From: a virus
Taxonomy: Duplodnaviria; Heunggongvirae; Uroviricota; Caudoviricetes
DNA length: 5,949 nt
Virus record (IMG/VR): IMGVR_UViG_3300028969_000052
Direction: 5' to 3' (one strand)
The notes beneath the pieces were generated by a model. It was not told where the DNA came from. It saw only the letters and a list, made by a program, of their open reading frames with translations, and did no database searches. The position numbers were made by a program, and so were the translations under genes. This document shows, piece by piece, positions 1 to 5,949 of this stretch (position 1 is the stretch's first letter; each line of letters opens with the position of its first letter).

Positions 1-173
1 CGCTTGCCATGCCCGAACATTTCAATCCAGCGATATTCTGCCTGGGTGTGTTCACGCGCAATGAAGAACGTACAACCGGCTATCGCCCCGTAAACCCAGT
101 TTCCGGTAAAAAGACCAATCAGTACCTGCGCAGCCACAGCACAAAGCGCATGAAGAAAAGGTGTTATATCCAT
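1..173 (-). CDS. Small hydrophobic (probably membrane) protein, 5' part only; ORF runs off the window start. Translation from ATG at 173-171: MDITPFLHALCAVAAQVLIGLFTGNWVYGAIAGCTFFIAREHTQAEYRWIEMFGHGKR...
   Basis: Seen in sequence: ATG at 173-171 preceded by a strong Shine-Dalgarno AGGAGG (plus 176-181, 4-nt spacer), only 10 nt after the stop of the upstream 234-aa gene; open frame with no stop to position 1. Absent from the ORF track, probably because it is short and has no in-window stop. The hydrophobic stretch suggests a transmembrane helix. Function unknown. Confidence 0.45.
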   Translation of the reverse strand, partial: MDITPFLHALCAVAAQVLIGLFTGNWVYGAIAGCTFFIAREHTQAEYRWIEMFGHGK

Positions 174-183
174 TACTCCTCCT

Positions 184-888
184 TTATCTAATATCGCTTC
201 GGGAAGTTAATAACAACTTTAATTCTGACTCAAGTTCATCAACTCTTTCAGTCAGTTTCTGGATATGGTGAATCAGTGGAACAACCAGACGTTCGTACAT
301 TACACCTTCGGCAACAAGGCCATTGCTGGAAATAGCTTCAGGAGCATCATCTTCGTTAGCTGGTCGCCAGTGTACAAACTGAGGAGCAATTTCTCCTACT
401 TCCTCGGCAATCAATCCGTAGAATCCCCAGTCACGCCTGTCATTTTCGCATTGCGACCTGTACCACACAGGGCGCATCCTGAAAATGAGATCGGCGTGCT
501 CTGAATCTATTGTCTCTACTGAATGTTTATAGCGGATAGACGATGTTGACCGCAGTACAGACGAAATTGCAGGGTCAGGATTAAGATAAAGGTTTGCCGC
601 CGCTGTAGTCGTGGCCAAATTCCATAAATAAAACGCTTCACGACCTGTCAGTGGATAAAAATCTCCGCCATAACGACCACTTTCCAGATCGTTCACTTCC
701 ACTTTGTTTTTCAGCTTATTATCAACTTCAGTTTTTGTGTATCTGGAGCTGATATCCTGCTTTGCACTGGTCATATCAGTCTGAAGCGTTGATACTTTAC
801 TGTTAATTGAGGAAATATCTTCCTTCGCTTTACTGACATCTCCCTTCAGCGTGGTGATGTCTCCCGGAATTACTGTCGATGTAGCCAT
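184..888 (-). CDS. Tail-fibre-like protein (234 aa): N-terminal ~115 aa of coiled-coil/fibre-like sequence plus a C-terminal intramolecular chaperone auto-processing domain (Peptidase_S74 / endosialidase-chaperone type)
   Basis: ORF track 184..888. SD-like GAGGGAG 5-6 nt upstream of the ATG at 888-886. The C-terminal half (SSIRYKHSVETIDSEHADLIFRMRPVWYRSQ...GFYGLIAEEVGEIAPQFV...GVMYERLVVPLIHHIQKLTERVDELESEL) follows the conserved pattern I recall for the C-terminal intramolecular chaperone domain of endosialidase and phage tail fibres. Domain assignment is from memory, not a search. Confidence 0.7.
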   Translation of the reverse strand: MATSTVIPGDITTLKGDVSKAKEDISSINSKVSTLQTDMTSAKQDISSRYTKTEVDNKLKNKVEVNDLESGRYGGDFYPLTGREAFYLWNLATTTAAANLYLNPDPAISSVLRSTSSIRYKHSVETIDSEHADLIFRMRPVWYRSQCENDRRDWGFYGLIAEEVGEIAPQFVHWRPANEDDAPEAISSNGLVAEGVMYERLVVPLIHHIQKLTERVDELESELKLLLTSRSDIR

Positions 889-897
889 TTGTCTCCC

Positions 898-1179
898 TCA
901 CATCCAGCCACGAAGTTGATGTTCAACAACAACCGCGTATTCATCGAATATTGACGATTTTTTTGCATCATTAATGATGCGCACGTTTACAAAATATCCG
1001 TCTTCCTTAACACATACCGGTTCGCCATCTTCAGTCAGTTCTCCGGTTTCTTTGTACACGTTACCTATCACGTCAATAAGAATATCATCCTGCATCGACT
1101 CGTCATCATAATAGCCAGCACTCTTCATAAAGGCCGAAAAGTCGGCCTTGTCTGTGAATTTGATAATTAAATCTCGCAT
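898..1179 (-). CDS. Hypothetical acidic 93-aa protein, translationally coupled to the side tail fibre gene; possibly a fibre-specific chaperone or assembly factor (speculative)
   Basis: ORF track 898..1179. Its ATG (1179-1177) overlaps the stf stop codon (1181-1179) by one nucleotide (TAATG on the minus strand). Acidic composition, no recognisable similarity to lambda Tfa. AT-rich like the distal part of stf. Confidence 0.55.
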   Translation of the reverse strand: MRDLIIKFTDKADFSAFMKSAGYYDDESMQDDILIDVIGNVYKETGELTEDGEPVCVKEDGYFVNVRIINDAKKSSIFDEYAVVVEHQLRGWM

Positions 1180-3563
1180 TATATTATCTCTCCCATTTGC
1201 GCATCGGTTAATTCTTTATGCCATATTCTAAAATTCCTGATATAACCAAATAAATGACGTAAGCCGGCTGTAGTCTGGCCTCCAATCCTTATACCTGTAG
1301 CACCACTAACACTCTTCCACGTTGTTGATGCTGGTGTTGATAAAACCCCATTGCAGCCAGCCTGAAACTTGCCATCGCTTTTTATTCTATATACAGCGAT
1401 AATCTTTCTTGGGTAATTTCCAGGTGGAAATGATATTTGATTACCAAATTGAACATATGGAGTTCCTACACTACCTGCTGTATTTCTGAATGCAAAAACA
1501 AAAGCGTCGTCTTTTGTTTTAAATCCTGTTATATCATAAATTCTAGGCGCGGAATTTGGTGCTATAGACCAATTTTTATTCACTTCAACCATGCAGGTTA
1601 AAGGTTTGCTGGTCATGTTATTTTTACAAGGCAATGTAACAATATCGCTTGCTCGCGTTGATGCAACTGTATCGGAAATGATAAAAGATGATGCGCATGA
1701 GCCGCCTTCAAATTGTGGTGTCGTAACATCCAAATATTCCCCGCCCAAATAAGTTCCAGGTGAAACAGGTGGAGCAATTTGGATCTGAGAGCCAACCATA
1801 TTATCAATAGCTTCAGATTGATATGTAACCTCGAAATAAATCCATCCATTAGATTCTTTCTCCGCTCGGGCGGTTATTCTTGCAGCCCCTCCTCCCGTTT
1901 TTCTAATGGACATATCTGTTATATTAGGATATGCATCTGCCAGATAAAAATATGCGGACCCGTCATATCTTTCAAATCTTATACGACATTGTATATTAGC
2001 ACTATCGCTTTTTACACGACATGATGTTGTAACATACTTTTCAGTTCCAGTAACATCGACACCTCTTCCTCCTGAAACCGCAGCGATATTCATTGTCGTA
2101 TTTGTCCCAATTTTTTCGTCCTTTATTTGAAACCGCCCATAAGTAAAGCCAAACTCATCAACACCACTTTCTGTTATAGTTACACTTGTTGTAGCTCCCC
2201 ACTTAGATGGCGTAAGTGAATTAAGATGATAGTTGGTTCTTTGTCCTTCAATCAGCAAACCTTCTCGTTCAAATCGCGGTTCGTCAACTTCAGCAACGGT
2301 TAATACTCCTGATTTATTAATGTATGTTGCACCTGATGCGCGTTTGAAGCTAACAACCTTATCGGATGGCATTTTAATAACATCATCACCTACAGTTATT
2401 TGCTTATAACCAGGCGAAAAGCCAGCAAGCATATCCAGTGAATCGTTAAACGGTATCCACACATCGGGAAGCGGCTGCAAAACTTGTTTATACGGCTCCG
2501 CAGCCTGGCTTGCATACTCTCTGGCTGCGTCTTCACTTGCTTTTGCAGCCGTCTGGCTTGCAGCGGATGCTTTCGCCGAGTTAGCCGCCGCAGTCTCGCT
2601 CGCCTTTGCGTTGGTTTCACTGGTTTTTGCAGCTTTTTGACTGTTGGCTGATGCAGTGGCAGAAGAAGCCGCCGCACTTGCAGAACCAGCTGCGGCACTC
2701 TCGCTTTGGGCCGCTGCATCCTGACTGTTTTTCGCCGCAGTTTCGCTGGCTTTGGCATTCGTTTCGCTGGTCTTCGCTGCCGTCTGGCTGGACTTTGCGT
2801 TGGTTTCGCTCGTCTTCGCTGCTTTCTGGCTGTTAGCTGCAGCAGTTGCTGATCCAGCTGCTGAAGTCGCAGAACCGGCTGCAGCACTCTCGCTTTCGGC
2901 TGCTGCAGCCTGACTGCTTTTCGCCGCAGTTTCACTGGTTTTGGCATTCGTTTCGCTTGTTTTCGCTGCCGTCTGGCTGGACTTTGCGTTGGTTTCGCTC
3001 GTCTTTGCTGCTGTCTCGCTATTTTTCGCGTTGTTTTCTGATTTTTTAGCTGCTGTCGCGGAGTTTGCCGATGCAGTCTGCGAGGCCGCTGCCGCCTGTG
3101 CGCTGTTAGCTGCATTCGTTTCTGAGGTTTTCGCNNNNNNNNNNNNNNNNNNNNNNNCCGCTGCTGTTTCTGATTTCTTTGCTGCCGCTGCGCTCTGAGA
3201 GGCGGCTTCAGCGTTGTGTGCCGCTTCTTCCACCATTGCCTCAAAACGACGCAATGCCTCCGGCATGACATCATCTTCCGTCATGGCACCGAGAAAATCA
3301 TTCAGCGTACCTGGTCTGGAACCTTCATAGACGGTAATGGTTCCGGCATGTGAAGGCGGAAAACCTTCAACCAGCAGGATAACGCTATACTGGCCATACT
3401 CAACGTCCATGCTGTAACGCCCGGCTTCATCCGGATTTTCAGAGGCCACCGTGTTCACCAGTACAGTGGTGCTGTTACGCTTTGCCTTCAGTTGAATAGT
3501 GCAGTTCTGTATTGGTTTTCCCGCACCATCTTTCAGCACACCTGAGATTTTTACTGCTGCCAT
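1179..3563 (-). CDS. stf: Side tail fibre protein (lambda Stf-like N-terminus, repetitive Ala-rich shaft, distal domain ending in a probable ConA/LamG-like lectin fold); contains a 23-nt N-run
   Basis: ORF track 1179..3569 opens at a GTG that overlaps the SD. The likely true start is the ATG at 3563-3561 (GGAG, 5-nt spacer, ATG), giving MAAVKISGVLKDGAGKPIQNCTIQLKAKRNSTTV..., which matches the lambda Stf N-terminus as I recall it. The frame stays coherent across the N-run 3135-3157. The C-terminal motif GLRHLFGYIRNFRIWHKELTDAQMGEI resembles the end of LamG-type lectin domains (from memory). Confidence 0.85.
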   Translation of the reverse strand: MAAVKISGVLKDGAGKPIQNCTIQLKAKRNSTTVLVNTVASENPDEAGRYSMDVEYGQYSVILLVEGFPPSHAGTITVYEGSRPGTLNDFLGAMTEDDVMPEALRRFEAMVEEAAHNAEAASQSAAAAKKSETAAXXXXXXXXAKTSETNAANSAQAAAASQTASANSATAAKKSENNAKNSETAAKTSETNAKSSQTAAKTSETNAKTSETAAKSSQAAAAESESAAAGSATSAAGSATAAANSQKAAKTSETNAKSSQTAAKTSETNAKASETAAKNSQDAAAQSESAAAGSASAAASSATASANSQKAAKTSETNAKASETAAANSAKASAASQTAAKASEDAAREYASQAAEPYKQVLQPLPDVWIPFNDSLDMLAGFSPGYKQITVGDDVIKMPSDKVVSFKRASGATYINKSGVLTVAEVDEPRFEREGLLIEGQRTNYHLNSLTPSKWGATTSVTITESGVDEFGFTYGRFQIKDEKIGTNTTMNIAAVSGGRGVDVTGTEKYVTTSCRVKSDSANIQCRIRFERYDGSAYFYLADAYPNITDMSIRKTGGGAARITARAEKESNGWIYFEVTYQSEAIDNMVGSQIQIAPPVSPGTYLGGEYLDVTTPQFEGGSCASSFIISDTVASTRASDIVTLPCKNNMTSKPLTCMVEVNKNWSIAPNSAPRIYDITGFKTKDDAFVFAFRNTAGSVGTPYVQFGNQISFPPGNYPRKIIAVYRIKSDGKFQAGCNGVLSTPASTTWKSVSGATGIRIGGQTTAGLRHLFGYIRNFRIWHKELTDAQMGEII
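2637..3014. repeat. Two near-identical tandem direct repeats of ~189 bp (63 codons) inside the stf shaft, with nested ~42-bp (AKTSETNAKSSQTA-type) sub-repeats; the degenerate Ala/Ser/Thr/Lys repeat region extends over ~2500-3230
   Basis: Seen directly: the stretch ~2696-2820 is almost identical to ~2886-3010. The protein shows AKTSETNAKSSQTAAKTSETNAKTSETAAKSSQAAAAESESAAAGSATSAAGSATAAANSQKA followed by a near copy. Confidence 0.8.
3135..3157. other. Run of 23 N (assembly gap or masked bases) inside stf
   Basis: Literal N characters. The reading frame and the repeat pattern of stf are continuous on both sides. Confidence 0.95.
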
Positions 3564-3574
3564 ATCCACTCCAC

Positions 3575-3623: not shown

Positions 3624-4217
3624 CTAATCAGAATTTATAACCGACANNNNNNNNNNNNNNNNNNNNNNNNNNNNNNNNNNNNNNNNNNNNNNNNNNNNNN
3701 NNNNNNNNNNNNNNNNNNNNAACTGCACGCCAGCCCCCCACGCCAGAGACGTGTTGCTGTGGCGACCGTCATCACTTCCGGTCAGCACATCGTGCGTATC
3801 CCCCTTGTTGTCGGTCACCTGAAGATAATCCCCGGAAAAAGTCGACACACGGCTGTAAGCCACACCCGCGATCGCATACGCGCTGAACCATTCATTCACG
3901 CGCACAGACGGCCCCGCCATCACGCTGAACCAGCGGTTACGCACTGAATCTTCATGCCAGCGGGTATCGCTGTAATGCGTTTTTTGCTCATCTTTGGCAT
4001 TGGCATAACTGAATGACGTCACCAGCCCCAGCGTGTCCGTAAATTCATAACGGTATTTCACGTTAATGCCCTTCAGGTCATCACTGCCTGGCATATCAGT
4101 ATGGGTCTGAAGATACCCGGCGCTTAGTGTGGACTGATGCTCTGCTGCGCTCGCTGGCGTACCAGCGGCAACCAGCCAGACTACTGCGGACAGAATAACA
4201 GCACATAATTTACGCAT
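3624..4217 (-). CDS. lom: Lom/Ail-family outer-membrane beta-barrel protein (lambda Lom homologue); interrupted by a 73-nt N-run near the 3' end
   Basis: ORF track 3624..4217. N-terminus MRKLCAVILSAV...AAGTPASA is signal-peptide-like, and EHQSTLSAGYL...GINVKYRYEFTDTLGLVTSFSY...WGAGVQ matches lambda Lom as I recall it. SD GAGAGG 6-7 nt upstream of the ATG at 4217. After the N-run the track frame ends ...SVINSD, but the adjacent frame ends ...VGYKF-stop, the typical aromatic C-terminus of this family, so the 3' coordinate is uncertain by a few nt. Confidence 0.85.
   Translation of the reverse strand: MRKLCAVILSAVVWLVAAGTPASAAEHQSTLSAGYLQTHTDMPGSDDLKGINVKYRYEFTDTLGLVTSFSYANAKDEQKTHYSDTRWHEDSVRNRWFSVMAGPSVRVNEWFSAYAIAGVAYSRVSTFSGDYLQVTDNKGDTHDVLTGSDDGRHSNTSLAWGAGVQXXXXXXXXXXXXXXXXXXXXXXXXXXSVINSD
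3648..3720. other. Run of ~73 N (assembly gap or masked bases) inside the lom 3' region
   Basis: Literal N characters. The frame relationship across the gap is not preserved relative to the expected Lom C-terminus. Confidence 0.95.
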
Positions 4218-4284: not shown

Positions 4285-5949
4285 TCAGCTAATCGTGATG
4301 CCTGCAGTGGCTTTCTTCATCACCACAACCAGCAAATCGCTGATACTTGCTGTGGGATACCAGCCATTTACCAGCCATGCCGATACAGAAAATTCCAGTG
4401 TCATGACACCACTGCCTGCAGGCATATCAATAACACCCGTATATATCAGCGTATTATCCAGAGCCGTTCGGTTATAAATTTCAGCACCGTTTTTTCGTAC
4501 TATCAGACGGCATGAGGAGTAGATATCAGTATGATCTTGCTCATGTTTAGCGCCACTGAATGCCACCGCCGGGATAACAATTTGCCGGTCAAACGGCTGA
4601 TCGTCATAAACCCTGACGGTAATGGTTCCTGATGGCCACCGCTCCGGTGCACGGGAGTCCCGGGGGAAAGCTTTGCCCACTGTTTTAACGAGATCACCTT
4701 CAATCTGGTTGGCGGACAGTTTTCCCAGAACCCGACAGTTCTCGTTAATCGTGACGTTGTTGAGCGTCCCGGAGTTCGCATTCACGTTACCGCTGATATC
4801 GGCATTTTTCGCCGTCAGCCGCCCGTCCGGTGTCAGGGAAAATGCCGGAGGATTACCGCCGCTGGTAATGGTGGGAGCCGTCAGATATTTCAGGAACACT
4901 TCATTCATGTATATCTGATCGCCCTGCCCAACAAACATCGGCTTTGTGTTGCCATTCGCAGGATTAATCATCGCAATCCTGTCTGCCGCCAGCAGCACCT
5001 GACTCTGCATGCCGTCAGGGGTGTTTTCAATACCGGCACCAATACCCGCGATATAAAGGCGTCCGTCCTGCATCTGCTGCAGCTTCACAGCCCACATGCT
5101 GTTCAGGTTATTATTTGTATCAACCTGAACCTTCTGTATCTGCTGGATCGCTGCACTCTGGTCTTCCAGTTTCTTATTGACGGTCTGCGTGATTTCATTA
5201 CTGACATCCGTGATGGACGTTCTGATTTCCGCCAGGTCAGGCGCAAGCTGACCGTTATCAATCTGCGTCCACAACTCCTGAGCCAGATGGGTTTTCCCTA
5301 TCTCTCCTTTGAAAAAATCCAGATAGCCGGATGCATCATCACTCGGCTGGCCAACAGCCTCCACGAATGCCGATTTGCCAACGGTGTTCACACTGCGGAT
5401 GTAAAAATAATAATCATGGCCCGGCTTGATATTGATACTGGCAGCTATCCAGTACAGCGCCGTGCCAAGATAGCGGGCTGTGGTTTCAACCTGCCTGATA
5501 TCCGCAATCCGCTTTTCCGAGAACCAGAACTCAAACTGTACCGTCGGATCATAAACCGCAAGATGCGGCGTGGCGGTGATCTGAAAATAGCCCGGAGTCA
5601 GCTCAATCCGCGACGGCGCTGACGGTGCGGCAATCCGGAACGATACCGACGCCGGATCGCCCTGCTGCCCCCACGCATTTACTGCCCGGACTGTCAGCGT
5701 GTAACGCCCCAGCGCCAGTTGCCTGAAGCGGTATGTGGTTTCCGTCGTCCGGGCTGTGCTGACAAGCCGCTCACTGCCGTCATCCGCTGCCACGGTCAGG
5801 CGAAGCATAAAGCTCACCCCCTTCACCACCTTCGGCGTGTCCCATCGCGCCAGTACCTGATATTCCCCGCTGTCTGCGGTGACTTCGGCAGTCAGGTGCT
5901 GCACTGCTGGCGGCGTGACACCATTCACCGTGCCGCTCTGGTCACCGTC
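4285..5949 (-). CDS. J: Host-specificity protein J (central tail fibre / tip attachment protein), C-terminal ~555 codons; the 5' end lies beyond the window
   Basis: The ORF is open to the window edge. The M at 5928 in the track is an internal GTG and upstream codons read DGDQSGT without a stop. [33 protein letters not shown]...[22 protein letters not shown]...[21 protein letters not shown]...[20 protein letters not shown] matches lambda J as I recall it; the last ~150 aa diverge. Confidence 0.9.

What the first reader, a model, noticed from the sequence alone, without database searches (positions are those of the whole stretch)
184..888. Stand-alone 234-aa protein with an endosialidase-type intramolecular chaperone domain and a putative Ser-Lys autoproteolysis dyad
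This chaperone domain normally sits at the C-terminus of large trimeric fibres or tailspikes and is released by self-cleavage after folding. Here it is attached to only ~115 residues of coiled-coil-like sequence. The segment SSIRYK has Ser and Lys at i and i+5, the spacing I recall for the catalytic dyad in endosialidase. The product would be a very short trimeric fibre or fibre tip of unknown partner.
Basis: partly seen in the sequence, partly recalled or inferred. Interest (0 to 1): 0.6.

Follow-up and report, generated by a model that had tools for sequence, protein, structure and literature searches.

The report
Short self-cleaving side-fibre tip protein
This gene of an E. coli lambda-like prophage most likely encodes a very short three-chain tail-fibre piece that folds with a built-in helper domain and then cuts that domain off; it is the smallest version of a swappable "third gene" that follows the side tail fibre gene in many coliphages, so it is real and tidy but an ordinary kind of phage part.

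Summary
Window 888..184 (minus strand) is a 234-aa ORF with its own Shine-Dalgarno site. Residues 116-172 match Pfam Peptidase_S74 above the curated cut-off. Ser116 and Lys121 are invariant in homologues and align with the phage T5 fibre residues Ser1264 and Lys1269, next to a Thr-Ser bond as in T5. The modelled C-terminal half matches solved self-cleaving chaperone domains.

It is the third gene of a conserved module: side tail fibre, 92-93-aa protein, third gene. The module occurs in lambda-like prophages, T1-like phages and Queuovirinae. In the loci examined the third gene is 221-510 aa. It combines a conserved ~30-aa N-terminal head, a variable tip and an S74 domain; the 234-aa form is near the short end of that range. 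Residues 38-233 are 57-59% identical to the C-terminal end of single-chain lambdoid side tail fibres. The gene is under purifying selection (dN/dS 0.19) and combines freely with different fibre alleles.

Best reading: a short trimeric fibre piece, matured by self-cleavage and docked on the side-fibre apparatus through its N-terminal head. Cleavage, trimer formation, virion incorporation and the docking partner are all untested. It is a new member of a known kind; interest is modest.

The parts
184..888 (-). Complete gene for the 234-aa short fibre protein (stop codon 184-186). Calculated masses: full length 26.4 kDa, residues 1-115 12.5 kDa, residues 116-234 13.9 kDa.
   Evidence: ORF list; Pfam and PHROG hits; masses; dN/dS 0.19 over 19 distinct alleles.
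893..897 (-). Shine-Dalgarno GGGAG between the TGA stop of the 93-aa gene (898-900) and the ATG (886-888).
   Evidence: Junction sequence TGAGGGAGACAAATG. A stop-SD-ATG junction is also seen in seven of the eight other loci checked.
793..888 (-). Residues 1-32, the conserved N-terminal head (MATSTVIPGDITTLKGDVSK...), proposed to be the docking element.
   Evidence: It is the only part shared (62-68% identity) with the alternative 346-aa third gene. It matches the N-termini of phrog_4563 and phrog_19752. It is also found in Drexlerviridae and Queuovirinae third genes.
742..867 (-). Residues 8-49: six heptads with I/V/M at position 4 and L/A/I at position 7, read as a coiled-coil stalk.
   Evidence: Heptad layout. 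AF2 models a helix at 11-47. Weak matches to Lpp and the P22 gp26 needle coiled coils. The number of repeats differs between homologues.
544..693 (-). Residues 66-115: a non-helical terminal module (…TTTAAANLYLNPDPAISSVLRST), the predicted C-terminal end of the mature fibre. The Thr115 codon is 544-546.
   Evidence: From about residue 85-90 this module co-occurs with the S74 domain at the C-terminus of other fibres. N99 is invariant; T94 and R113 are at least 90% conserved. dN/dS is 0.15. AF2 confidence is low for the monomer.
526..543 (-). SSIRYK, residues 116-121: predicted nucleophile Ser116 (541-543) and general base Lys121 (526-528). The predicted scissile bond is Thr115|Ser116.
   Evidence: Both residues are invariant. 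They align to T5 pb1 T|SDARLK; the T5 mechanism is described in PMC4690869.
187..543 (-). Residues 116-234: the intramolecular chaperone / Peptidase_S74 domain, including a C-terminal helix at 199-233.
   Evidence: Pfam; AF2 block-mean pLDDT 84-95 over residues 131-230; Foldseek hits 7dc3, 3gw6 and 3gud; dN/dS 0.14.
898..1179 (-). 93-aa protein of unknown function (phrog_1361). It is always the gene between the fibre gene and the third gene, and is a candidate connector or assembly factor.
   Evidence: Its start overlaps the Stf stop. It is 86-99% identical across 80 IMG/VR loci. Identity to the homologues in phages KarlJaspers and KurtStettler is 51% and 42%. No Pfam or PDB match. The AF2 model is unusable (pLDDT 45).
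1179..3569 (-). Side tail fibre (Stf-like, 796 aa): phage_tail_N anchor, Ala/Ser/Thr-rich repeat shaft, and a C-terminal lectin-like domain (GTA_spike_fiber / Laminin_G_3). It contains a masked N-run at 3135-3157.
   Evidence: Pfam and NCBIfam. It is 44% identical to the KarlJaspers lateral tail fibre over 539 aligned residues. Its C-terminal 416 aa are only 38-57% identical to most other loci.
1..173 (-). 5' part of a 97-aa gene (phrog_1443) that looks like a membrane protein. It starts 10 nt after the 234-aa stop codon with an AGGAGG site. It is a neighbour and probably not part of the fibre module.
   Evidence: Full sequence from L001; PHROG hit. It follows both third-gene types in lambdoid loci but is not the gene that follows in KarlJaspers, swan01, JenP2 or KurtStettler.

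Best explanation
The 234-aa protein is a minimal, separately encoded tail-fibre subunit of the prophage's side-tail-fibre apparatus.

Proposed mechanism, by analogy with phage T5 pb1 and the K1F endosialidase:
1. Three chains associate through the C-terminal chaperone domain (residues 116-234).
2. That domain templates the trimeric fold of the short upstream module (residues 66-115) and zips up the six-heptad coiled coil (residues 8-49).
3. Once the trimer is correct, Ser116, activated by Lys121, cuts the Thr115-Ser116 bond and the 13.9-kDa chaperone leaves.
4. The mature 12.5-kDa x 3 stub stays on the virion. It is docked through its conserved ~30-residue N-terminal head to an invariant part of the fibre apparatus. 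The candidate partners are the neighbouring 93-aa protein and/or the conserved scaffold of the fibre's lectin-like C-terminal domain. The result would be a two-component (branched or extended) side fibre.

Shown here: the domain, the dyad, the fold, the gene order, the modular head, homology to genuine fibre ends, and purifying selection.

Inferred, not shown: trimerisation, cleavage, presence in virions, the identity of the docking partner, and any receptor binding.
For: Domain, dyad and fold: Pfam S74 above its cut-off. S116 and K121 are invariant and align with the T5 motif. The AF2 model matches ICA/IMC structures.

It is a fibre end. Residues 38-233 are 57-59% identical to the C-termini of the 735- and 958-aa proteins P0065 and P0067. 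Both carry the lambda Stf N-terminal anchor (phage_tail_N) and a fibre repeat. PHROG 3299, a 1385-position profile, aligns the whole protein to its last 237 positions at E=1e-139.

It is one allele class of a modular third gene. All 77 IMG/VR loci with DNA downstream of the 93-aa gene, fetched through that gene alone, have a gene starting 12 nt after its stop with this N-terminal head. Complete ORFs there and in the nine other loci searched are the 234-type (49), a 346-aa type (25) or a truncated 346-type (2). The 346-aa type shares only about 31 residues and ends in its own S74 domain (E=1.2e-13).

The 346-aa type matches the C-termini of 1210- and 1567-position fibre families. Its tip is much more divergent than its head or its chaperone domain (pN 0.128 against 0.009 and 0.018).

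The same three-gene order occurs in Drexlerviridae (KarlJaspers 44/51/59% identity; swan01) and in Queuovirinae (JenP2 348 aa; KurtStettler 510 aa).

The third-gene type assorts independently of the fibre's variable domain: the three largest fibre clusters each pair with both types.

One S74 fibre without the head (P0045) has no 92-aa gene upstream, whereas two with the head do.

dN/dS is 0.19. No terminator-like site was found in window 1-1400 and promoter-like sites were no more frequent than in shuffled sequence, so the genes look like one operon.

Precedent: in DT57C, LtfB carries an S74 domain and attaches through its N-terminal ~45 aa to LtfA (PMC4728585).
Against: No experiment or multimer model was available. 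The AF2 monomer is unconfident for residues 62-115.

No virion proteomics or functional study of this protein was found in the papers searched. For swan01 only five virion proteins were identified, and the locus tags of these genes do not occur in the held supplements.

The mature part outside the coiled coil is only ~50 residues per chain. It is highly conserved (94-99% identity) while the neighbouring fibre domain is hypervariable. That is unusual for a receptor-binding tip and would fit a purely structural or assembly role.

The BASEL authors annotated the homologues as 'putative lateral tail fiber chaperone'.

The T5 'sensor' Arg and Asp upstream of the scissile bond could not be mapped from sequence.

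The apparent co-variation between the C-terminus of the 93-aa protein and the third-gene type can be explained by physical linkage.
Confidence: 0.6

Rival explanations
1. Trans-acting assembly chaperone. The protein is not part of the virion. Its S74 domain, or the whole protein, helps the neighbouring lectin-type side fibre to trimerise and is then discarded.
For: Homologues are annotated 'putative lateral tail fiber chaperone' in BASEL phages. The module contains no recognisable Tfa-type chaperone. The 234-type is highly conserved next to a hypervariable fibre domain. Its own passenger region is tiny.
Against: The cleavage dyad is invariant in the stand-alone forms, which is unnecessary for a purely trans-acting factor. 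Allelic third genes carry roughly 160-200 aa of tip domain between head and S74, and in the 346-aa type that tip is highly divergent. Residues 38-115 are homologous to the mature C-terminal end of real single-chain fibres. The third-gene type is not matched to the fibre allele.
Confidence: 0.17
2. Uncleaved cap. The protein assembles on the fibre but keeps its chaperone domain, permanently or transiently. It would then act as a mask on the fibre end, as proposed for 'chaperone caps' in Alteromonas phages.
For: In T5 the uncleaved chaperone blocks the fibre's ability to compete with infection (PMC4690869). Transient chaperone caps have been proposed (PMC10579305, cited). The upstream sensor residues could not be confirmed.
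Against: Ser116, Lys121 and a small hydroxyl residue at -1 are conserved as in cleaving homologues. No feature of the sequence suggests loss of activity.
Confidence: 0.12
3. Decaying remnant. The ORF is the left-over 3' end of an older single-chain side fibre gene, stranded when the lectin-type fibre cassette recombined in, and it has no function.
For: Residues 38-233 are homologous to the 3' end of single-chain lambdoid Stf genes. Prophage tail-fibre regions are full of such fragments; a partial tfa gene and a pin recombinase lie just downstream in L001.
Against: It has its own SD and ATG and a distinct N-terminal head. dN/dS is 0.19, and 37 intact 234-codon copies were found among the loci. 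The orthologue keeps the same position in lytic Drexlerviridae and Queuovirinae genomes.
Confidence: 0.03
4. Read-through fusion. The 93-aa ORF and the 234-aa ORF are in the same frame, separated by TGA plus 9 nt. Stop-codon read-through could therefore make a 93+234 fusion that is the real product.
For: The two ORFs are in frame in 8 of 9 junctions examined.
Against: The lytic phages use the efficient stop TAA. KarlJaspers is out of frame. Eight of the nine junctions examined carry a Shine-Dalgarno site before the ATG, which fits ordinary re-initiation.
Confidence: 0.03

Closest known systems
[quoted passage not shown]
   Same: A C-terminal S74 chaperone domain follows a trimeric fibre end. 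The scissile bond is Thr-Ser and the Lys lies 5 residues after the Ser, which aligns column for column. The chaperone ends in a C-terminal helix that forms a coiled coil in T5.
   Different: pb1 is one 1396-aa chain with a ~290-aa bullet-shaped receptor-binding domain before the chaperone. Here the whole passenger is 115 aa and is encoded apart from the long fibre. Overall identity to the aligned T5 C-terminal segment is only 17%.
LtfB of T5-like phages DT57C and DT571/2, and gp15 of phiEco32: second fibre proteins of branched fibres (PMC4728585, PMC10713586)
   Same: A second, separately encoded fibre protein lies next to the main fibre gene. It ends in an S74 self-cleaving domain and is thought to dock on the main fibre through a short conserved N-terminal segment of ~45 aa.
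   Different: No sequence relationship of the N-terminal head was shown. The present module has an extra conserved 92-93-aa gene between the two fibre genes. Its main fibre ends in a lectin-like domain without an S74 domain. Attachment here is inferred, not genetically shown.
Single-chain lambdoid side tail fibres ending in an S74 domain (P0065, 735 aa; P0067, 958 aa)
   Same: 57-59% identity over residues 38-233, covering the YTKTEV shaft motif, the terminal TTT..AN..Y module, RSTSS.RYK and the chaperone. The phage group is the same, and the N-terminal anchor family is the same as that of the window's own Stf.
   Different: In those proteins the segment is fused to the fibre. Here it is a separate gene with a new 37-residue N-terminus.
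K1F endosialidase chaperone, GA-1 neck appendage chaperone and MyRF ICA domain (PDB 3GW6, 3GUD, 7DC3)
   Same: Same fold family by Foldseek (7dc3 E=3e-5, 26-27% identity; 3gw6 and 3gud follow) and the same Pfam family.
   Different: Those passengers are large beta-helical spikes or a eukaryotic transcription factor. There is no enzymatic passenger domain here.
346-aa to 510-aa third-gene alleles of the same module (phrog_4563; JenP2 gp25; KurtStettler bas22_0024)
   Same: Same position 9-12 nt after the 92-93-aa gene, the same N-terminal head, and an S74 domain.
   Different: They carry roughly 160-200 aa of globular tip between head and chaperone, and their S74 domain has the canonical SDRDLK motif. 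KurtStettler also has a ~250-aa extension after the S74 domain. The 234-aa form has almost no tip.

Membership tests
[quoted passage not shown] | Significant match to the family profile above the curated threshold | tested here: met
   27.4 bits against a cut-off of 22, E=4.2e-6, profile positions 1-57 of 58. Homologues in the same module score 22.4-58.9 bits.
Peptidase_S74 / ICA domain | Catalytic Ser at the first residue of the domain and Lys five residues later, aligned with characterised members | tested here: met
   S116 and K121 are invariant in 29 and in 8 sequences, and align with the T5 pb1 motif T|SDARLK. The roles of Ser1264 and Lys1269 in T5 are taken from PMC4690869.
Peptidase_S74 / ICA domain | Characteristic fold: a mixed alpha/beta body followed by a long C-terminal helix that forms the trimeric coiled coil | tested here: met
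   AF2 block-mean pLDDT is 84-95 over residues 131-230, with a helix at 199-233. Foldseek hits 7dc3 (E=3e-5), then 3gw6 and 3gud. The model is a monomer only.
Peptidase_S74 / ICA domain | Located at the extreme C-terminus, directly after a trimeric fibre or spike segment | tested here: met
   The domain runs to the stop codon. It is preceded by a six-heptad segment and by a terminal module that precedes the S74 domain in other fibres as well.
Peptidase_S74 / ICA domain | Upstream 'folding sensor' residues from a neighbouring chain (Arg1250 and Asp1239 in T5) that make cleavage depend on a correct trimer | tested here: inconclusive
   R113 (at least 90% conserved), N99 (invariant) and D105 lie upstream, but the alignment with T5 is unreliable before the scissile bond. 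A trimer model is needed.
Peptidase_S74 / ICA domain | Actual self-cleavage and release of the domain after trimerisation | not testable with these tools
   Requires expression of wild type, S116A and K121A. Predicted products are 12.5 and 13.9 kDa from 26.4 kDa.
Second subunit of a branched or composite phage tail fibre (LtfB / phiEco32 gp15 type) | Encoded next to the main fibre gene in the same operon | tested here: met
   The order fibre, 92-93 aa, third gene holds in every locus examined that had DNA downstream. No terminator-like site was found between the genes.
Second subunit of a branched or composite phage tail fibre | Conserved short N-terminal segment combined with exchangeable distal parts | tested here: met
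   The ~31-aa head is shared by the 234-, 346-, 348- and 510-aa alleles. Hybrid heads exist.
Second subunit of a branched or composite phage tail fibre | Physical attachment to the main fibre and presence in the virion | not testable with these tools
   No multimer prediction was available. No proteomic or structural data for this protein were found in the papers searched.
Tfa-type or other stand-alone tail fibre assembly chaperone | Sequence or fold relationship to known separate fibre chaperones | tested here: not met
   No Pfam, NCBIfam or PHROG chaperone family matched. All annotated PHROG hits at E below 1e-4 are tail-fibre or minor-head structural families.

The most novel reading that the evidence does not exclude
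The module is a general plug-and-play docking system. The conserved 92-93-aa protein would act as a connector that accepts any fibre piece carrying the ~30-residue MAT.T.IP.DI..LK head. Lambda-like, T1-like and Queuovirinae phages could then swap self-cleaving tips (from almost nothing, as here, to ~200-aa receptor-binding domains) onto a lectin-type side fibre independently of that fibre's own specificity. In that picture the 234-aa form is a 'blank' or minimal plug that occupies the socket.
Probability: 0.3. Interest if true: 0.5.

Novelty: new member of a known kind. Interest (0 to 1): 0.3.

Why it matters
Side tail fibres of lambda-like phages are being re-engineered to retarget phage-derived DNA-delivery particles (for example bioRxiv 10.1101/2022.09.30.509847). 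Lateral fibres also determine which O-antigens T1-like and related siphoviruses can penetrate.

If the fibre apparatus in this widespread module has a second, separately encoded and freely exchangeable component with a defined ~30-residue docking head, two things follow. The component has to be carried along when such fibres are transplanted. It also offers a small handle for attaching new binding domains.

The 234-aa protein is also about the smallest natural passenger for an S74 chaperone among the homologues examined here. That would make it a convenient model for studying chaperone-driven trimer folding and self-cleavage. None of this changes current concepts; it fills in an unannotated piece of a common prophage.

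Tried and rejected
- Structure of the 93-aa neighbour: AF2 with 11 close homologues gave mean pLDDT 45, which is unusable, so no fold search was run.
- Sequence search of the PDB with the 93-aa protein gave only chance-level hits.
- Literature: the two BASEL papers, the DT57C papers, a Cronobacter Drexlerviridae fibre paper, the SH6, KanT1, SECphi27/Bil, Danish wastewater, Hf4s and Eligo lambda papers contain no characterisation of this short protein. The swan01 virion proteomics supplements do not mention the three genes.
- Stop-codon read-through fusing the 93-aa and 234-aa ORFs was considered because they are in frame. It was rejected because the lytic phages use TAA, one phage is out of frame, and eight of the nine junctions checked have an SD site.
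- A separate promoter or terminator around the gene: none beyond chance.
- The plus-strand ORF 9..191 and other overlapping ORFs were treated as shadows of minus-strand genes.
- Co-variation between the C-terminus of the 93-aa protein and the third-gene type was seen, but it cannot be separated from linkage of adjacent DNA.
- NCBIfam gave nothing for the target beyond a sub-threshold Lpp coiled-coil match.
Full report
**What the window is.** All real genes in the 5949-bp window lie on the minus strand and form the end of a lambda-like tail operon.

| Window coordinates | Product |
|---|---|
| 5928..4285 | C-terminal 547 aa of the tip attachment protein J |
| 4217..3624 | Lom |
| 3569..1179 | 796-aa side tail fibre (Stf): phage_tail_N anchor, Ala/Ser/Thr-rich repeats, lectin-like C-terminal domain (GTA_spike_fiber / Laminin_G_3) |
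| 1179..898 | 93-aa protein of unknown function |
| 888..184 | the 234-aa target |
| 173..1 | start of a further gene |

Window 1-1300 is 98.6% identical to E. coli chromosomes. There it lies in a prophage next to ydfK and a pin-type recombinase. The region is at least 80% covered in 720 of 5426 complete E. coli genomes, including BL21(DE3) and E. coli C.

**Checking the observation.**
- The ORF, its length and the SSIRYK motif at residues 116-121 are as described.
- Pfam Peptidase_S74 matches residues 116-172 with 27.4 bits against a cut-off of 22.
- Ser116 and Lys121 are invariant in 29 homologues, short and long.
- In an alignment with the C-terminus of T5 pb1 they fall on the T5 motif T|SDARLK. 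The T5 structure paper gives Thr1263-Ser1264 as the scissile bond and Lys1269 as the activating base (PMC4690869). The predicted cut here is therefore Thr115|Ser116.
- The AF2 monomer is confident for residues 131-230 (block-mean pLDDT 84-95). Foldseek finds the MyRF ICA domain (E=3e-5), then the K1F and GA-1 chaperones.
- The N-terminal 115 residues are not all coiled coil. Residues 8-49 are six clean heptads. Residues 66-115 are a non-helical module.
- In a search of 1.84 billion representative proteins, that module (from about residue 85) accompanies the S74 domain at the C-terminus of most of the 150 best hits, which are mostly 300-1300 aa.

**It is a real gene, not a fragment.**
- It has its own GGGAG-ATG start directly after the stop codon of the 93-aa gene.
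- Pairwise dN/dS over 19 distinct alleles is 0.19. It is 0.15 for residues 66-115 and 0.14 for the chaperone.
- Orthologues keep the same position in lytic phages (see below).
- No terminator-like site was found in window 1-1400, and promoter-like sites were no more frequent than in shuffled sequence.

**The surroundings give the key result.** I fetched 80 IMG/VR loci through the 93-aa protein alone.
- In all 77 loci with DNA downstream, a gene starts 12 nt after the 93-aa stop, and its first ~31 residues match the target's N-terminus (MATSTVIP.DI.TLK.DVSK).
- Complete third-gene ORFs in these loci and the nine other loci searched fall into three groups: the 234-aa type at 94-99% identity (49), a 346-aa type (25) and truncated 346-aa copies (2).
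- The 346-aa type shares only the N-terminal head (62-68% identity). It has a ~200-aa tip that is far more divergent than its head or its chaperone domain (pN 0.128 against 0.009 and 0.018). It ends in its own canonical S74 domain (HSDRDLK; E=1.2e-13).
- Hybrid heads show recombination inside this segment.
- The 346-aa type matches the C-terminal ends of long fibre families.

**The same three-gene order occurs in other phage groups.**

| Phage (group) | Third gene | Evidence |
|---|---|---|
| IdasGreatGrand (temperate) | 234 aa | |
| KarlJaspers (Drexlerviridae) | 225 aa; 44/51/59% identity for the three proteins | |
| swan01 (Drexlerviridae) | 224 aa | |
| Two metagenomic contigs | 268 and 245 aa | |
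| JenP2 (Queuovirinae) | 348 aa | |
| KurtStettler (Queuovirinae) | 510 aa | |

One S74 fibre that lacks the head (P0045) has no 92-aa gene upstream.

**Relationship to genuine fibres.** Residues 38-233 are 57-59% identical to the last ~190 residues of P0065 (735 aa) and P0067 (958 aa). Both begin with the lambda Stf anchor domain and contain a fibre repeat. PHROG 3299 (1385 positions) aligns the whole protein to its C-terminal 237 positions. The target therefore equals the C-terminal end plus chaperone of a single-chain side fibre, given a new N-terminal head and encoded separately.

**Independence from the main fibre.** The C-terminal 416 aa of Stf is only 38-57% identical to the window's copy in most other loci. 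The 93-aa protein (86-99%) and the 234-type (94-99%) are conserved. Sixteen clusters of the Stf C-terminal domain (at least 90% identity) were found in 71 loci. The three largest each occur with both third-gene types, and the 234-type occurs with 14 of the 16.

**Most likely mechanism.** The T5 and K1F paradigm (PMC4690869) and the branched-fibre precedent of DT57C LtfA/LtfB (PMC4728585, PMC10713586) suggest the following.
1. Three chains nucleate at the chaperone domain.
2. The domain templates the short terminal module and the coiled coil.
3. Ser116/Lys121 then cut Thr115|Ser116 and the 13.9-kDa chaperone is released.
4. The 12.5-kDa x 3 stub remains as a short component of the side-fibre apparatus, anchored through its N-terminal head.
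5. The partner is probably the 93-aa protein and/or the conserved scaffold of the lectin-like domain.

Domain, dyad, fold, synteny, modularity, homology and selection are shown. Trimerisation, cleavage, virion location, partner and receptor binding are inferred. I put about 0.6 on this reading.

**Rivals.**
- A discarded trans-acting chaperone (0.17) is how the BASEL authors annotated the homologues. It fits the tiny, conserved passenger. It is hard to reconcile with the invariant cleavage dyad, the large divergent tips of allelic genes, the homology to mature fibre ends, and the free assortment with fibre alleles.
- An uncleaved cap (0.12) cannot be excluded from sequence.
- A dead remnant (0.03) is contradicted by the data above.
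- A read-through fusion with the 93-aa ORF (0.03) is contradicted.

**Comparison with what is known, and novelty.**
- The protein meets every sequence and fold criterion of the S74/ICA family that could be tested. The upstream sensor residues are inconclusive and cleavage itself is untestable here.
- It behaves like the second subunit of branched fibres (LtfB type), but attachment was not tested.
- Databases already label it 'tail fiber domain-containing protein' or 'chaperone of endosialidase'. The BASEL paper already notes that lateral fibres of small siphoviruses can consist of two or more proteins.
- This analysis adds three points: the definition of a conserved three-gene module with a shared N-terminal head; the recognition that the 234-aa protein is near the short end of the third-gene size range (221-510 aa); and its derivation from single-chain side fibre ends.
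- I found no paper that characterises it. It is a new member of a known kind, of modest interest (0.3).
- The more interesting but unproven reading is a general plug-and-play docking system built around the 93-aa protein.

Noticed in passing
window 1-173 (minus strand), full gene in L001 8880-9173: A 97-aa protein that looks like a membrane protein (MDITPFLHALCAVAAQVLIGLF...; phrog_1443, no Pfam) starts 10 nt after the 234-aa stop with an AGGAGG site. It follows both the 234-type and the 346-type third gene in lambdoid loci, but it is not the gene that follows in the Drexlerviridae and Queuovirinae modules. It could be a prophage accessory gene. The plus-strand ORF 9..191 is its antisense shadow.
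   Followed up: partly
window 898-1179 (minus strand): The 93-aa protein (phrog_1361) is always wedged between the fibre gene and the third gene, and its start overlaps the Stf stop. It is conserved at 42-51% identity from lambda-like prophages to Drexlerviridae and Queuovirinae. It has no Pfam, NCBIfam or PDB match, and the AF2 model is unusable (pLDDT 45).
   Followed up: partly
window 3135-3157 and 3647-3720: Two runs of N (23 and 74 bases) interrupt the Stf repeat region and the 3' end of lom. They are masked or unresolved sequence, not biology, and they put X residues in both translations.
   Followed up: yes
window 1179-3569 (minus strand), residues ~355-796: The side fibre ends in a lectin-like domain (GTA_spike_fiber / Laminin_G_3) rather than a gp37-like tip with Tfa. 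Against KarlJaspers its first ~90 and last ~40 residues are conserved while the middle is divergent. Sixteen clusters at 90% identity were found in 71 loci.
   Followed up: partly
L089 4501-6033 (phage KurtStettler): The third-gene allele of this Queuovirinae phage is 510 aa. After the S74 domain it carries a further ~250 residues rich in Gly, Gln and Cys and ending in ...PPTPPTSCC. An extension after a chaperone domain that is normally C-terminal is odd.
   Followed up: no
L040 and L082, about 4292 onward: Two loci carry truncated 346-type third genes (227 and 90 aa). Two other loci carry hybrid heads (MATSTVIPDDIKTLKGDVSKAKEDISS), which shows recombination inside the ~30-residue head.
   Followed up: partly
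L001 10179-12557 (E. coli EcPF14): In the closest complete genome the Stf gene is annotated as broken into pseudogene pieces, while the 93-aa and 234-aa genes downstream are intact. The window's own Stf is a single ORF apart from the N-run.
   Followed up: no
window 889-900 and the same junction in L002, L023, L084-L086, L088, L089: The 93-aa and third-gene ORFs are in the same reading frame in 8 of 9 junctions examined, separated only by a stop codon and 6-9 nt of spacer that carries a Shine-Dalgarno site in eight of the nine. This is probably inherited spacing rather than read-through, because the lytic phages use TAA and KarlJaspers is out of frame.
   Followed up: yes
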